From Clostridia bacterium (lineage in GTDB: Bacteria; Bacillota; Clostridia; CAKSNL01; HGM11501), in NCBI GenBank assembly GCA_045545475.1, contig JAZQAZ010000041.1:58354-122353 (forward strand): DNA of 64,000 nucleotides. Reading direction: 5' to 3'. Position numbers and translations under genes: made by a program. This document shows positions 35,707-38,555 of the stretch, piece after piece; the stretch's first letter is position 1; the number at the start of each line of letters is the position of its first letter. Below the pieces are notes generated by a model. The model saw only the letters and a list, made by a program, of their open reading frames with translations. It was not told where the DNA came from and did no database searches.

Positions 35707-35859
35707 CTAACATCCGAAAAAGAGTATATAGCCGAAGATTAGAATTATAATTGCCTCCATAGCGGCAATAAACCACACGGGCATTATAAATGCAAGAAGT
35801 GCTCCGAGAGCAAATGCCACGGCACAGGTGCATAAAGATGTTCCTTTTCTTCTCTTCAA
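35707..35859 (-). CDS. Small two-TM hypothetical protein (50 aa) coupled to spoVM
   Basis: TTG start after AGGAGGGAG; MKRRKGTSLCTCAVAFALGALLAFIMPVWFIAAMEAIIILIFGYILFFGC; stop overlaps the spoVM RBS. Confidence 0.7.
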   Translation of the reverse strand: MKRRKGTSLCTCAVAFALGALLAFIMPVWFIAAMEAIIILIFGYILFFGC

Positions 35860-35915: not shown

Positions 35916-35948
35916 AAAGCGACTGTGAATTTCACAGTCGCAAAAAAA
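35916..35948 (-). terminator. Intrinsic terminator after the acyl-CoA synthetase gene
   Basis: GCGACTGTGAA-T-TTCACAGTCGC flanked by A/T runs. Confidence 0.8.
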
Positions 35949-38204
35949 TCATTTTCTGTTTTTATCGTTTTCTCTTATTTCTACTCGTCTTACCTTACCG
36001 CTGATGGTTTTGGGAAGTTCTGCCACGAAGTCAACAATTCTGGGATATTTGTAAGGAGCGGTTCTCTTCTTTACATATTCCTGAATTTCCTTCTTAAGTT
36101 CGTCAGAGCCTTCCTTGCCCTTTACCAGAACGATTGTAGCCTTTACAATCTGACCTCTGATTTCGTCGGGTACTGCGGTGATTGCACATTCAAGAACATA
36201 GGGAAGCTCCATAATTACGCTCTCAATTTCGAAGGGTCCGATTCTGTAACCGGAGGACTTTATAACGTCGTCGATTCTACCCACGTAGAAGAAATATCCT
36301 TCCTCGTCACGTGTTGCCTGGTCGCCGGTGTGATAGAAACCATCGTGCCAAGCTTCCTTCGTCTTAGCCTCGTCAAGATAGTACCCCTTAAAGAGTCCTG
36401 CGGGAACCTCCTCGCTTGTTCTGATACAGATTTCACCTGCTTCACCGGGTGCACATTCTTTGCCATCCGCATCAAGAAGGGTTACATCGTAAAGAGGACT
36501 GGGAAGTCCCATAGAACCAAGCTTCGGATGTGTGCCCACAAGGTTGCCGATCGCAAGGGTTGTTTCCGTCTGTCCGAAGCCTTCCATAATTGTAAGACCT
36601 GTCGCCTCACGGAACTTGTTGCTTACTTCGGGATTTAATGCCTCACCTGCTGTTGTAGCATATTCAATAGAAGACAAATCATACTTTGACAAATCTTCTT
36701 TTATAAAGAAGCGGTACATTGTGGGAGGTGCGCAGAATGTTGGGATGTTGTATTTTGCAAACATGGGAAGAATTTCTTCAGACTTAAAGCGGTCAAAGTC
36801 ATAGGTGAATACACCTGCTTCGCAGAGCCACTGTCCGTAGAACTTGCCCCAGAGTGCCTTACCCCAACCGGTGTCGGAAATGGTAAAGTGGAGTCCGTCG
36901 GGATTTACATTATGCCAGTATTTAGCTGTGATATAGTGACCCAGTGCGTATTTATAGGAGTGTGCCGCAATTCTGGGATATCCAGTTGTACCTGAGGTAA
37001 AGAGCATAAGCATTGTGTCATCGCCGCAGGGAGAATTTTCTGTGCGTTCATAAACGTCAGAGAATTTTTCCATTTCGACGTTAAAGTCGTGCCATCCTTC
37101 CTTACATCCGCCCACCATAATTTTAGTGATGTTTCTGCCTTCTGCCGCCTTTGCTGCATGGTCTGATACCTCGCCGTCAGCAGTACAGATTACAGCCGCA
37201 ACACCTGCCGCCTTATAGCGATACTCAAAGTCATGTTCAACCAACTGATTTGTAGCAGGGATTGTTACCGCTCCGATTTTATGAAGGGCAAGCATTGTAA
37301 ACCAGAACTGATAATGACGCTTAAGAACGATCATTACCGTATCGCCCTTCTTTATTCCGAGACTTTCAAAGTAGTTTGCGGTCATATTGGAATATTTCTT
37401 CATATCGCCGAAGGTAAAGCGTCTGTCCACTCCGTCCCCTGATACCCACATCATAGCAGTCTTATCAGGAGTTTTGTCGGCAATAGCGTCAACACAGTCA
37501 AATGCAAAGTTGAACTTATCGGCATTTTTGAAGCTTATCTTCTGAAGCACACCTTCTTCATTTGTTACGCAGTCGATAAAGTCATCTGCCACGGTTTTTC
37601 CGGTGCTCTTTCTTACGGTAACGGCCTTTTTCTCTGTTTCAGCCTTTTCCTCGCCCGCCATAACAATAGCATAAATTTCGCAGGGAGCATTATCCATTGC
37701 AGAAAGTGCATGGGGTGCGCTGCTGTCATAGTAGATGCTGTCTCCCGGCTCTAAAATTTCCGTGCGTTCATTTATTGTTATCTTAAGTCTTCCGGATACA
37801 ACAATGTCAAGCTCCTGACCTGCATGGGAGGAATAAGATGTTTCTCCCTCAATATAAGGAATTTTAACCAAGAAAGGCTCAGCCGTTTTATTTTTAAATG
37901 AAGGTGCAAGATGCTGATAGTGGAAGCCCGATTTTCTTTCGATTGGCATTCCCTCTCCCTTTTTGACATAGTTATATAAGGAAAGCATGGGGCTTGAACC
38001 CTCTAAAAGGTCCTTAATTTCTACGCCGAATGCCTGGGCGCACTTATAAATAAAGGTGAACCCGAAATCCGACTCTCCCTTTTCAAAGGAAAGGTATGTT
38101 GCTTCTGTCACATCCGCAAAGTTCGCCATTTCAGCTGTCGTATAGCCCTTAATTTCGCGAAGCTCCTTAACACGGAGTGCAATTTCTTTTAATTTGCTGT
38201 TCAT
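35949..38204 (-). CDS. XRE HTH-cupin fused to a short/branched-chain acyl-CoA synthetase (AMP-binding)
   Basis: N-terminal HTH RVKELRE..EKGE; cupin HAGQE..PGDSIYYDS..PH; FTSGTTGYP, EGFGQTET, YHTGD, GYRIGPFEIES, PKTISGK. Confidence 0.92.
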   Translation of the reverse strand: MNSKLKEIALRVKELREIKGYTTAEMANFADVTEATYLSFEKGESDFGFTFIYKCAQAFGVEIKDLLEGSSPMLSLYNYVKKGEGMPIERKSGFHYQHLAPSFKNKTAEPFLVKIPYIEGETSYSSHAGQELDIVVSGRLKITINERTEILEPGDSIYYDSSAPHALSAMDNAPCEIYAIVMAGEEKAETEKKAVTVRKSTGKTVADDFIDCVTNEEGVLQKISFKNADKFNFAFDCVDAIADKTPDKTAMMWVSGDGVDRRFTFGDMKKYSNMTANYFESLGIKKGDTVMIVLKRHYQFWFTMLALHKIGAVTIPATNQLVEHDFEYRYKAAGVAAVICTADGEVSDHAAKAAEGRNITKIMVGGCKEGWHDFNVEMEKFSDVYERTENSPCGDDTMLMLFTSGTTGYPRIAAHSYKYALGHYITAKYWHNVNPDGLHFTISDTGWGKALWGKFYGQWLCEAGVFTYDFDRFKSEEILPMFAKYNIPTFCAPPTMYRFFIKEDLSKYDLSSIEYATTAGEALNPEVSNKFREATGLTIMEGFGQTETTLAIGNLVGTHPKLGSMGLPSPLYDVTLLDADGKECAPGEAGEICIRTSEEVPAGLFKGYYLDEAKTKEAWHDGFYHTGDQATRDEEGYFFYVGRIDDVIKSSGYRIGPFEIESVIMELPYVLECAITAVPDEIRGQIVKATIVLVKGKEGSDELKKEIQEYVKKRTAPYKYPRIVDFVAELPKTISGKVRRVEIRENDKNRK

Positions 38205-38261
38205 GTAATCACCTCATAAAATTTTTATATATTGAAAATTTTCAATTTTAAGCTAAGTAAA

Positions 38262-38512
38262 AACAAAAAACTCGTCTCATTCTTGAGACGAGTTACATTA
38301 CCCGCGGTACCACTCAATTTGTGCTTTCGCACCACTCTTCAGGCTCCAACAAGCCCTATGCACTAACGCAGCATTCTCGGGAGAAGCTTACTTTTTATTC
38401 AGCCCTCCGACTCGGAAGTGATGGGTCTTTGTATCATCTTGCTATCTGCTCACACCAAACGCAGACTCTCTGAAAGCTCAAAGGTACGACCGTCTTCGTC
38501 ACAGTCTTTATT
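38262..38512 (-). promoter_or_regulatory. T-box riboswitch, Ile (AUC) specifier, transcriptional terminator type
   Basis: Stem I with AGAGA and GGTGTGA loops; GACCC-ATC-AC specifier (38422-38420); AATTGAGTGGTACCGCG T-box at 38319-38303; terminator CTCGTCTCA..TGAGACGAG followed by a T run. Confidence 0.9.
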
Positions 38513-38526
38513 ATTGATTTTTTTGA

Positions 38527-38555
38527 ATTATAGCACACTATTTTTTATTTGTCAA
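38527..38555 (-). promoter_or_regulatory. SigA promoter for the T-box leader
   Basis: TTGACA-N17-TATAAT with TGn extension. Confidence 0.85.

What the first reader, a model, noticed from the sequence alone, without database searches (positions are those of the whole stretch)
35949..38555. Isoleucine T-box controlling an XRE-cupin-acyl-CoA synthetase fusion: candidate branched-chain fatty acid salvage to Ile
Seen: a complete T-box (AUC specifier, UGGU antiterminator bulge compatible with an A73 discriminator, terminator) upstream of a monocistronic acyl-CoA ligase carrying its own HTH-cupin module. Known: T-boxes normally control aaRS, biosynthesis or transport genes, and rumen anaerobes make Ile by reductive carboxylation of 2-methylbutyryl-CoA. 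Inference: this is the 2-methylbutyrate-CoA ligase of that route, induced by Ile starvation and possibly doubling as a regulator.
Basis: partly seen in the sequence, partly recalled or inferred. Interest (0 to 1): 0.72.

Follow-up and report, generated by a model that had tools for sequence, protein, structure and literature searches.

The report
Isoleucine T-box controls branched-acid CoA ligase
A tRNA-sensing RNA switch tuned to isoleucine sits in front of an enzyme that most likely activates the gut fermentation acid 2-methylbutyrate, so that a bacterium lacking the normal pathway can rebuild isoleucine from it.

Summary
The window has a perfect sigma-70 promoter and a full T-box leader (Rfam 96.2 bits, cut-off 93). 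Its specifier is AUC and its antiterminator bulge is UGGU. A terminator follows, then one 751-aa gene (HTH + cupin + AMP-forming acyl-CoA synthetase) and a second terminator.

- The ligase domain's best solved relative is MacsMa (3ETC), which prefers 2-methylbutyrate.
- 72 of 75 related loci keep the T-box. Specifiers are AUC (52) or GUA (21), and the GUA genes form one clade.
- 4 of 5 genomes with a Val copy also show an Ile copy.
- 49 of 80 related loci have a VorB-type 2-oxoacid:ferredoxin oxidoreductase operon downstream on the same strand.
- This genome has no ilvD, ilvC or ilvA match over cut-off, but does have VorDBAC and two class-IV aminotransferases.

The regulator idea remains open. 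The HTH-cupin also occurs as a separate gene under the same T-box, and a complex model supports its binding to the ligase.

This scan had already noted the same arrangement on other DNA (25 notes, at least 24 genomes). My seven literature searches found no paper describing it.

The parts
38527..38555 (-). Sigma-70 type promoter: TTGACA, 17 nt spacer, TG-extended TATAAT
   Evidence: 12 of 12 hexamer matches with TG. The same TTGACA / TGnTAnAAT layout is seen upstream of the orthologous leaders.
38281..38511 (-). T-box leader (Stem I, Stem III, T-box sequence and antiterminator)
   Evidence: RF00230, 96.2 bits (gathering score 93), E 7.2e-20, model positions 1-219. Stem I covariation, 17 of 19 pairs.
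38420..38422 (-). Specifier codon AUC (Ile), followed by A38419 and the closing helix CUUC 38418-38415
   Evidence: The triplet ATC is invariant while both flanking bases vary across the 52 ATC leaders. The ileS leader of the same genome shows the same string.
38303..38314 (-). Conserved T-box sequence AGUGGUACCGCG, with the UGGU bulge (38312-38309) that pairs with the tRNA 3' end NCCA (U opposite an A73 discriminator)
   Evidence: The identical 12-mer occurs upstream of 72 of 75 related genes.
38269..38294 (-). Intrinsic terminator of the leader (11-pair stem, loop of 4, T-run)
   Evidence: It is also present in the MFE fold.
35949..38204 (-). 751-aa ORF: XRE-type HTH + cupin + Macs-type AMP-forming acyl-CoA synthetase (candidate 2-methylbutyrate-CoA ligase)
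37998..38174 (-). HTH_3/HTH_19 domain (residues 11-69)
   Evidence: PDB 9k3w PbsX-family regulator, E 6.5e-4. Predicted to contact the ligase in the split homologue.
37665..37850 (-). Cupin_2 domain (residues 119-180), with H127, E131 and H165 invariant
   Evidence: These residues are invariant in 35 of 35 aligned sequences. The fold resembles HTH+cupin proteins HppE and 1Y9Q.
35994..37484 (-). AMP-binding (241-609) and AMP-binding_C (659-737) domains. Notable residues: W430, G544, A306, G448
   Evidence: 3ETC MacsMa, E 8.2e-193 over residues 228-749. Clade-specific residues A306 and G448. Residues checked.
35919..35941 (-). Intrinsic terminator after the gene, closing a monocistronic unit
   Evidence: 10-pair stem, 6 GC pairs.

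Best explanation
The unit is a transcription-attenuation switch followed by a salvage enzyme.

Shown: a strong promoter starts a T-box leader whose Stem I presents the Ile codon AUC. A 3' element can form a terminator.

From established T-box biology: uncharged tRNA-Ile pairs with the codon and, through its free NCCA end, with the UGGU bulge. This stabilises the antiterminator and lets RNA polymerase read into the gene. Charged tRNA-Ile cannot do this, so transcription stops at 38269-38294.

Inferred: the gene product uses ATP and CoA to turn imported 2-methylbutyrate into 2-methylbutyryl-CoA. The VorDBAC 2-oxoacid:ferredoxin oxidoreductase carboxylates this reductively to 3-methyl-2-oxopentanoate. 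A class-IV aminotransferase then makes isoleucine. This replaces the ilvC/ilvD route, which was not found in this genome.

A sister clade under Val (GUA) T-boxes would do the same with isobutyrate.

The N-terminal HTH-cupin is most likely a module that sits on the ligase and modulates it. Whether it also binds DNA is unknown.
For: T-box and specifier:
- establish the leader and the AUC codon.

Ligase family:
- The best NCBIfam match is MbcS, NF047394, E 1.6e-136.
- The best solved relative is 3ETC MacsMa, 645.9 bits, E 8.2e-193.
- MacsMa prefers 2-methylbutyrate and completes the two-step reaction with it. It has Gly in place of the Acs Trp416, plus a critical Trp259 (passages of PMC10455477).
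- The window protein keeps the aligned KYW Trp (W430) and FGQTET Gly (G544).
- MbcS selectively activates 2-methylbutyrate and isobutyrate, handles isovalerate poorly and does not use acetate (abstract of PMC10026030).

Conservation of the T-box:
- 72 of 75 related loci with upstream DNA carry the T-box 12-mer.
- Of 73 leaders, 52 have ATC and 21 have GTA at the codon columns.
- The GTA genes are one clade with SH-aLRT 100, one label change on a 75-row tree.
- 4 of 5 genomes with a GTA copy also show an ATC copy. In two of them the genes are in tandem, each with its own T-box.
- Two ligase positions separate the clades perfectly: 306 is A in 51/51 Ile and G in 21/21 Val; 448 is G in 51/51 Ile and A in 21/21 Val.

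Gene neighbourhood:
- 49 of 80 loci have a VorB-type alpha subunit 904-3697 nt downstream on the same strand. Among loci with at least 3900 nt of downstream DNA the figure is 40 of 53.
- In the loci read in detail (L015, L018, L019, L068), the ligase gene is followed 15-28 nt later by a P-loop gene, then vorD and vorB.

This genome (95% complete):
- No ILVD_EDD match.
- No KARI_N match over cut-off.
- No ilvA match over cut-off.
- VorB alpha scores 574 bits against a cut-off of 399, and beta, gamma and delta subunits are present.
- Two Aminotran_4 genes are present.

Sample of Clostridia-class genomes:
- 66 of 89 genomes with a close full-length homologue lack an ilvD match, against 66 of 211 without one.
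- 88 of the 89 have a VorB match, read from the table.

HTH-cupin module:
- It also occurs as a separate ~190-aa gene between an Ile T-box and the ligase gene in 5 of 12 loci examined.
- It occurs as a separate gene beside a paralogous ligase in this genome.
- A model of that pair scores 0.62, with 0.00 for the best of 3 controls. This mark was reached by 51 of 78 solved complexes and 2 of 108 mismatched pairs. Runs agree in at least 98% of contacts and the partner's pLDDT is at least 85.
Against: - No assay, expression measurement or labelling was available. Substrate, induction and carbon flow are all inferred.
- In this genome the vor cluster lies on another contig (C18), and none of the 7 T-boxes found lies there. 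Co-regulation with the ligase is therefore not shown here.
- 12 of the 53 related loci with enough downstream DNA, including the closest relative L008, also lack vor nearby.
- An acetolactate synthase large subunit is present (696.9 bits against 538), so not every ilv gene is missing.
- 23 of the 89 genomes with a close homologue do have an ilvD match. The gene is not confined to auxotrophs.
- The cross-genome counts use related genomes and a threshold chosen after seeing the data, so the p-value overstates the association.
- The MbcS score (456) is far below its equivalog cut-off (850).
- tRNA-Ile(GAU) is not in the assembly.
- MbcS itself serves fatty-acid priming, not amino-acid synthesis.
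- No Val-type copy was found in this genome. How it obtains valine is unexplained.
Confidence: 0.72

Rival explanations
1. The ligase makes 2-methylbutyryl-CoA mainly as a primer for anteiso branched-chain fatty acids, as MbcS does in Staphylococcus aureus. The Ile T-box would then compensate for the loss of Ile-derived primer when Ile is scarce.
For: The best family match is MbcS, whose shown role is BCFA priming (abstract). The product acyl-CoA is the same for both fates. Val-type copies would give iso-even primers.
Against: T-boxes sense tRNA charging, which reflects demand for the amino acid in translation. The gene is followed by a VOR operon in 49 of 80 loci, and priming from an acyl-CoA does not need VOR. 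The gene is enriched in genomes without an ilvD match. The two fates are not mutually exclusive.
Confidence: 0.12
2. The enzyme activates some other acid (acetate, propionate, butyrate, or an Ile-related 2-oxo or 2-hydroxy acid), and the link to isoleucine is indirect.
For: Some sources name relatives 'acetyl-CoA synthetase'. MacsMa forms adenylates with C3 to C8 acids. No assay exists for this clade.
Against: Acetate-CoA ligase models fall far below their cut-offs (TIGR02188 245 against 725; NF003313 346 against 729). The position of the Acs pocket Trp holds Gly. The Ile/Val split of T-boxes follows the protein tree. This matches the two alpha-methyl acids that MbcS accepts.
Confidence: 0.08
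3. The protein is chiefly a transcription factor (a 'trigger enzyme') that uses the ligase domain as a sensor and its HTH to control vor, transporter or other genes.
For: It has an XRE-type HTH and a cupin in the arrangement seen in PuuR-like regulators and 1Y9Q. The module is conserved throughout the family.
Against: The presumed recognition helix is variable and acidic in the alignment (consensus VSxEEYxxxExG). Only 15 of 63 HTH positions are at least 90% conserved. I saw no conserved palindrome beyond the promoter elements. The same fold pair occurs in enzymes where it does not bind DNA (HppE; their lack of DNA binding is recalled). In split operons the module is itself under the T-box. The model places HTH helix 1 and the HTH-cupin linker on the ligase.
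Confidence: 0.06

Closest known systems
Class I transcriptional T-box leaders (Rfam RF00230), for example ileS leaders of Firmicutes, including this genome's own ileS leader
   Same: Stem I with K-turn, specifier loop with AUC plus a purine, distal AGAGA/GGUG elements, T-box sequence with UGGU bulge, and a competing terminator.
   Different: The cargo is an acyl-CoA ligase rather than an aaRS, a de novo biosynthesis gene or a transporter. The 5' side of the specifier loop lacks the consensus AGUA stretch (a 4-nt deletion in the alignment).
MacsMa, medium-chain acyl-CoA synthetase of Methanosarcina acetivorans (PDB 3ETC)
   Same: Aligned over residues 228-749 at 645.9 bits. It shares the KYW Trp and the Gly that replaces the Acs pocket Trp. 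Its preferred substrate is 2-methylbutyrate.
   Different: The 580-residue chain aligns only with residues 228-749, so it shows no counterpart of the HTH-cupin module. It is archaeal and has no T-box. MacsMa has G at both 306 and 448, where the Ile clade has A/G and the Val clade G/A.
MbcS, methylbutyryl-CoA synthetase of Staphylococcus aureus (NCBIfam NF047394)
   Same: It is the best-scoring curated family. It is selective for 2-methylbutyrate and isobutyrate, the same pair implied by the Ile and Val T-boxes.
   Different: The score of 456 is below the cut-off of 850. The MbcS model (525 positions) aligns only with residues 243-750 of the protein. Its shown role is fatty-acid priming.
Two-domain HTH + cupin proteins (1Y9Q HTH_3 regulator of Vibrio cholerae; HppE, HEPD and MPnS phosphonate enzymes; PuuR)
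   Same: An N-terminal helical HTH-like domain followed by a cupin barrel (Foldseek E 5e-11 to 2e-9). H-x3-E...H is invariant in the cupin.
   Different: TM-scores are only about 0.3, because the domain orientation is uncertain. PuuR scores 22.7 against 211. Here the module is fused to, or encoded beside, an ANL ligase.
Isoacid (branched-chain volatile fatty acid) requirement and reductive carboxylation route of rumen microbes
   Same: 2-methylbutyrate goes to isoleucine and isovalerate to leucine, as stated for rumen methanogens in PMC10658910 (passage). The classical work on rumen bacteria is recalled, not read here.
   Different: That physiology was described without assigned activation genes or control in Clostridia, as far as my searches show.

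Membership tests
T-box leader (RF00230) | Covariance-model score at or above the gathering score | tested here: met
   96.2 bits against 93, full-length match.
T-box leader (RF00230) | Stem I with a specifier loop presenting a codon just 5' of the closing helix | tested here: met
   AUC + A + CUUC lie at the model's codon columns. The closing helix shows compensatory changes (GAAG/CUUC, GAAA/UUUC, GAGG/CCUC). 17 of 19 Stem I pairs covary.
T-box leader (RF00230) | Conserved T-box sequence with a UGGN bulge, and a mutually exclusive terminator | tested here: met
   AGUGGUACCGCG at 38314-38303. Terminator at 38294-38269.
T-box leader (RF00230) | Antitermination by the cognate uncharged tRNA | not testable with these tools
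   tRNA-Ile(GAU) is not among the 35 tRNAs of the assembly. An in vitro assay is needed.
Macs-type branched/medium-chain acyl-CoA synthetase (MacsMa, 3ETC) | ANL fold with both AMP-binding domains and close similarity to MacsMa | tested here: met
   PF00501 and PF13193. E 8.2e-193 over 522 residues.
Macs-type branched/medium-chain acyl-CoA synthetase (MacsMa, 3ETC) | Gly at the Acs pocket Trp position, and the alternative pocket Trp (MacsMa Trp259) | tested here: met
   G544 in FGQTET and W430 in KYW align with identical MacsMa residues. Their roles are taken from PMC10455477. Mapping Acs Trp416 onto the xGQTET motif is recalled.
Macs-type branched/medium-chain acyl-CoA synthetase (MacsMa, 3ETC) | Preference for 2-methylbutyrate | not testable with these tools
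   Enzyme assay needed.
MbcS (NF047394, equivalog) | Score at or above the curated cut-off of 850 bits | tested here: not met
   456 bits. It works like MbcS but is not filed as MbcS.
Acetate-CoA ligase (TIGR02188, NF003313) | Score at or above the curated cut-off | tested here: not met
   245.2 against 724.95, and 346 against 729.
PuuR-type HTH-cupin transcription regulators (NF007408) | Score at or above the curated cut-off; DNA binding | tested here: not met
   22.7 against 211 on the N-terminal 218 residues. DNA binding is not testable here.
VorB-type 2-oxoacid:ferredoxin oxidoreductase (partner, NF005507) | Alpha subunit over the cut-off, with beta, gamma and delta subunits adjacent | tested here: met
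   574.3 bits against 399. Beta and gamma subunits are adjacent, and a 68-aa two-cluster ferredoxin lies directly upstream. Location G000:C18:65646-68872.

The most novel reading that the evidence does not exclude
The HTH-cupin is not a DNA-binding regulator. It would be a new kind of sensor module for ANL ligases that docks on the mobile C-terminal domain. Through its invariant His-Glu-His cupin site it would gate the ligase in response to a small molecule or metal, for example Ile, a 2-oxo acid or Fe. That would add post-translational control on top of the T-box. In this reading, the Ile and Val paralogues, told apart by the A306/G448 to G306/A448 swap, are the missing substrate-specific entry enzymes of the isoacid-to-amino-acid route.
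Probability: 0.3. Interest if true: 0.78.

Novelty: new variant of a known kind. Interest (0 to 1): 0.66.

Why it matters
Rumen and gut fibre-degrading Clostridia have long been known to need branched-chain volatile fatty acids. The genes for the first step, and their control, are not assigned in the literature I could search.

If this reading is right, several things follow:
- The T-box specifier acts as a built-in label of substrate: Ile for 2-methylbutyrate, Val for isobutyrate.
- That label would apply to a family of thousands of proteins (7998 relatives scored) whose few source names are generic: 'AMP-binding protein', 'cupin domain-containing protein' or 'acetyl-CoA synthetase'.
- It gives testable genes for isoacid supplementation in ruminant nutrition.
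- It improves auxotrophy predictions for uncultured gut bacteria.
- It extends the T-box regulon to a salvage ligase.
- It points to an unstudied regulatory module on ANL enzymes.

Tried and rejected
**Expression.** The run search listed only two gut metatranscriptome runs, each holding 0.07 of the sampled words and kept as contigs. Laid at 90% likeness, contigs of relatives cover 27 and 28 of 30 bins, and two records cross from the leader terminator into the ORF. Contigs cannot show starts, ends or levels, and DNA carry-over is not excluded. I draw no conclusion on expression or attenuation.

**Literature.** Seven searches found no paper linking a T-box to a branched-acid CoA ligase. The library lacks most subscription journals. 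The two primary MacsMa papers (PMC2767475, PMC2976453) are not held. Pocket residues other than Trp259 and the Gly could therefore not be checked.

**tRNA-Ile discriminator.** Not testable, because the gene is not in the assembly.

**T-boxes on more distant relatives.** None of 12 loci in the 45-52% identity group has any Rfam match within about 700 nt upstream. T-box control is therefore not universal in the wider family.

**Operator search.** Reading 62 printed promoter regions by eye, I saw no conserved palindrome. There is only a recurrent AATTGAATA-like string.

**Sequence search of the N-terminal module against the PDB.** It gave only a 65-residue PbsX-family HTH.

**Structure-based distances for residues 306, 448 and 430.** Not possible, because model coordinates are not returned.

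**Earlier notes on this genome.** None exist.
Full report
**What is in the window**

cmscan of all 64 kb gives one match over a gathering score. It is a T-box leader at 38281-38511 on the minus strand, scoring 96.2 bits against 93 and covering all 219 model positions.

- A promoter lies upstream: TTGACA, 17 nt, TG-extended TATAAT, 12 of 12 matches, at 38555-38527.
- The model's codon columns hold AUC (38422-38420), followed by A and the helix CUUC.
- The T-box sequence AGUGGUACCGCG, with its UGGU bulge, lies at 38314-38303.
- An 11-pair terminator with a T-run lies at 38294-38269.
- The ORF at 38204-35949 encodes 751 aa: HTH_3/HTH_19, Cupin_2, AMP-binding and AMP-binding_C.
- A second terminator at 35941-35919 closes the unit.
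- The neighbours are unrelated to this function: a spoIIIA-like operon downstream and a divergent gene upstream.

**Is the specifier really Ile?**

The genome holds seven T-box matches. The one in front of ileS carries the same AUCACUUCCGAGU string, and the model aligns its AUC to the same columns. That leader scores only 60.7 bits, below the gathering score.

Across 73 homologous leaders (the window plus 72 loci), the codon columns hold ATC 52 times and GTA 21 times. The base before the ATC triplet varies, and the base after it is A, C, G or T. This fixes the reading frame.

RNAalifold on 45 Stem I regions predicts 19 pairs, and 17 of them show compensatory changes. These include the helix that closes the specifier loop.

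tRNA-Ile(GAU) is not among the 35 tRNAs of this draft assembly, so its discriminator base could not be read.

**What the enzyme is**

- The best curated family is MbcS, at 456 bits. This is below the equivalog cut-off of 850. Acetate-CoA ligase models score far lower relative to their cut-offs.
- The best solved relative is 3ETC, MacsMa of Methanosarcina acetivorans, at 645.9 bits over residues 228-749.
- Passages of PMC10455477 state that MacsMa prefers 2-methylbutyrate and completes the two-step reaction with it. They also state that Gly replaces the Acs pocket Trp and that Trp259 is critical.
- The window protein has the aligned W430 and G544.
- The abstract of PMC10026030 states that MbcS selectively activates 2-methylbutyrate and isobutyrate, uses isovalerate poorly and does not use acetate.

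**The family and its switches**

The fused architecture is common. Of 7998 scored proteins, the best 120 are all 751-768 aa, 69-98% identical, and share the same Pfam domains. Most are unnamed.

In species-representative genomes, 588 stretches encode a relative and 80 loci were kept. I left out five loci without usable upstream DNA or an N-terminus (L029, L062, L066, L071, L084). Of the remaining 75, 72 carry the identical T-box 12-mer upstream. The misses are L016, which has only 267 nt upstream, and L055 and L061.

I built a 75-row tree (the window plus 74 loci, with L027 also dropped as a partial ORF). On it, the 21 GTA genes form one clade with SH-aLRT 100.

Five genomes with a GTA copy each hold a second copy. 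In four of them the second copy has an ATC leader, and in two of those the genes are in tandem, each with its own T-box. In the fifth genome, the upstream DNA is missing.

Two ligase positions separate the clades without exception:

| Position | Ile clade | Val clade |
|---|---|---|
| 306 | A (51/51) | G (21/21) |
| 448, in the DTGWGK motif | G (51/51) | A (21/21) |

From memory, position 448 corresponds to a pocket residue of Acs. That mapping is not tested here.

The pairing of Ile and Val fits the two alpha-methyl acids that MbcS accepts.

**The partner enzymes**

I used this genome's own VorB alpha, beta and gamma proteins as tblastn queries. Of the 80 loci, 49 have a VorB-type alpha subunit 904-3697 nt downstream on the same strand. 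Among the 53 loci with at least 3900 nt of downstream DNA, 40 have it downstream, one has vor upstream on the other strand, and 12 have none. The 12 include L008, the window's closest relative.

In the loci read in detail (L015, L018, L019, L068), the ligase gene is followed 15-28 nt later by a P-loop gene of about 225 aa. A 68-aa two-cluster ferredoxin comes next, and then vorB and the beta and gamma subunits. That arrangement looks like a single operon behind the T-box.

In the window's genome the same cluster (P-loop, vorD, vorB, beta, gamma) lies on contig C18. Its alpha subunit scores 574 bits against a cut-off of 399.

The genome is 95% complete. Its content bearing on branched-chain amino acid synthesis is:

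| Gene or family | Result |
|---|---|
| ILVD_EDD (ilvD) | no match |
| KARI_N (ilvC) | none over cut-off |
| ilvA | none over cut-off |
| Aconitase family | a single 659-aa gene (so apparently no separate leuC) |
| Aminotran_4 | two genes |
| IorAB | present |
| Acetolactate synthase large subunit | present |

**A wider look**

I searched an even sample of 301 Clostridia-class genomes at least 90% complete. Of these, 300 were scored in all three searches. I defined a close full-length homologue as best E at most 1e-290, and 89 genomes have one.

| | With close homologue (89) | Without (211) |
|---|---|---|
| Lack an ilvD match | 66 | 66 |
| Have a VorB match at E ≤ 1e-100 | 88 | 133 |

The ilvD association has an odds ratio of 0.16. 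The VorB counts were read by eye from the table.

These genomes are related to one another, and I chose the threshold after seeing the data. I therefore treat this as a trend, not a statistical test.

**The HTH-cupin module**

It is conserved across the family. H127, E131 and H165 in the cupin are invariant in 35 of 35 aligned sequences.

A model of residues 1-220 has mean pLDDT 74. It resembles two-domain HTH + cupin proteins: HppE, the 1Y9Q regulator, HEPD and MPnS. Foldseek E-values range from 5e-11 to 2e-9, but the TM-score is only about 0.3.

The presumed recognition helix is variable and acidic, and I saw no conserved operator.

The module can also be a separate gene:
- In this genome, an ORF of about 183 aa sits directly upstream of a paralogous ligase that is 50% identical. 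No T-box lies there.
- In 5 of 12 'ligase-only' homologues examined, a full T-box is followed by a separate HTH-cupin gene of about 190 aa and then the ligase. Four of these have the specifier AUC+A and one is ambiguous.

A complex model of this genome's split pair supports binding, though it does not demonstrate it:
- The score is 0.62, with 0.00 for the best of 3 controls.
- This mark was reached by 51 of 78 solved complexes and 2 of 108 mismatched pairs.
- The runs agree in at least 98% of contacts, and the partner's pLDDT is at least 85.
- The contacts join HTH residues 7-19 and 59-79 to ligase residues 387-390 and 433-522. By my reading of ANL enzymes, that ligase region includes the mobile C-terminal domain.

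I read the module as a ligase-bound regulatory part. DNA binding is not excluded.

**How it most likely works**

When Ile is scarce, uncharged tRNA-Ile stabilises the antiterminator and the ligase is made. The ligase converts 2-methylbutyrate to its CoA ester. VOR carboxylates the ester reductively, and a transaminase yields Ile.

The T-box anatomy, the family relations, the neighbourhoods and the gene content are shown here. The substrate, the induction and the direction of carbon flow are inferred. The same acyl-CoA could also prime anteiso fatty acids. That is the main rival explanation, and it is compatible with the best one.

**Novelty**

The T-box class, the Macs/MbcS ligase group and the isoacid physiology are each known. 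Their combination is not described in any paper that my seven searches returned. That combination consists of Ile- and Val-specific T-boxes on paralogous HTH-cupin ligases, often heading a VOR operon. The searchable library lacks most subscription journals, and the supplements of comparative T-box studies were not seen.

After my own analysis I looked up earlier notes of this scan. It has 25 notes in at least 24 other genomes describing the same arrangement and reading. They agree with my results. One of them prompted the VOR neighbourhood test.

Noticed in passing
G000:C47:65461-71200 (own genome, outside the window; locus L001 covers its start): A second T-box (134.9 bits) with specifier CUC (Leu) precedes four genes. 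They are a divergent LeuA-like gene (below the LeuA and CimA cut-offs), an 818-aa fusion of an N-terminal region that I did not scan (about 270 residues) with a FadD-like acyl-CoA ligase, an aminotransferase and an inorganic pyrophosphatase-like ORF (read by eye, not scanned). This is a candidate isovalerate-to-leucine unit that uses a different ligase family.
   Followed up: partly
G000:C9:10733-16500 (locus L002): A T-box (103.8 bits) lies upstream of a sodium:solute symporter, another acyl-CoA ligase and a cysK-like gene (the last read by eye). The model puts ACG (Thr) at the codon columns, but UAC (Tyr) lies one base 5'. The amino acid sensed is unclear.
   Followed up: partly
G000:C6:22487-22711 (locus L006): A weak T-box match (68.9 bits, below the gathering score) with a likely UGG (Trp) specifier lies upstream of a lone trpB-like gene. 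This suggests indole salvage.
   Followed up: no
G000:C29:38752-41020 (locus L119): A split version of the same architecture. A separate HTH-cupin gene lies directly upstream of a Macs-like ligase that is 50% identical to residues 223-750. It has no T-box, and its substrate and control are unknown.
   Followed up: partly
G000:C18:65646-66284; also L015, L018, L019, L053 and L068 between the ligase gene and vorD: A conserved P-loop protein of 212-236 aa (motif GHYGSGKTN/E) always precedes the vorD-vorB genes. In relatives it sits between the T-box ligase and vor. Its function is unknown; it may be a maturation or accessory factor of the oxidoreductase.
   Followed up: no
G000:C34:59454-61103: An acetolactate synthase large subunit is present (696.9 bits against a cut-off of 538), although no ilvC or ilvD was found. 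Its role in this genome is unexplained.
   Followed up: no
window 38512-38526 (-) and the same position in related leaders: A recurrent AATTGAATA / AATTTAATA-like string lies between the -10 box and Stem I in many orthologous leaders. It may be part of the leader or a protein-binding site.
   Followed up: no
window 35707-35859 (-): A 50-aa hydrophobic ORF with a TTG start and a GGAGGGAG ribosome-binding site lies just after the ligase gene's terminator and before spoIIIAA. It was not examined further.
   Followed up: no
G008:C3:60442-62649, G006:C12:19046-21262 and ten other loci (L107-L118): This is a more distant group of HTH-cupin + ligase pairs, 45-52% identical and mostly with an in-frame stop between the two parts. 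None of the 12 has a T-box or any other Rfam match within about 700 nt upstream.
   Followed up: partly
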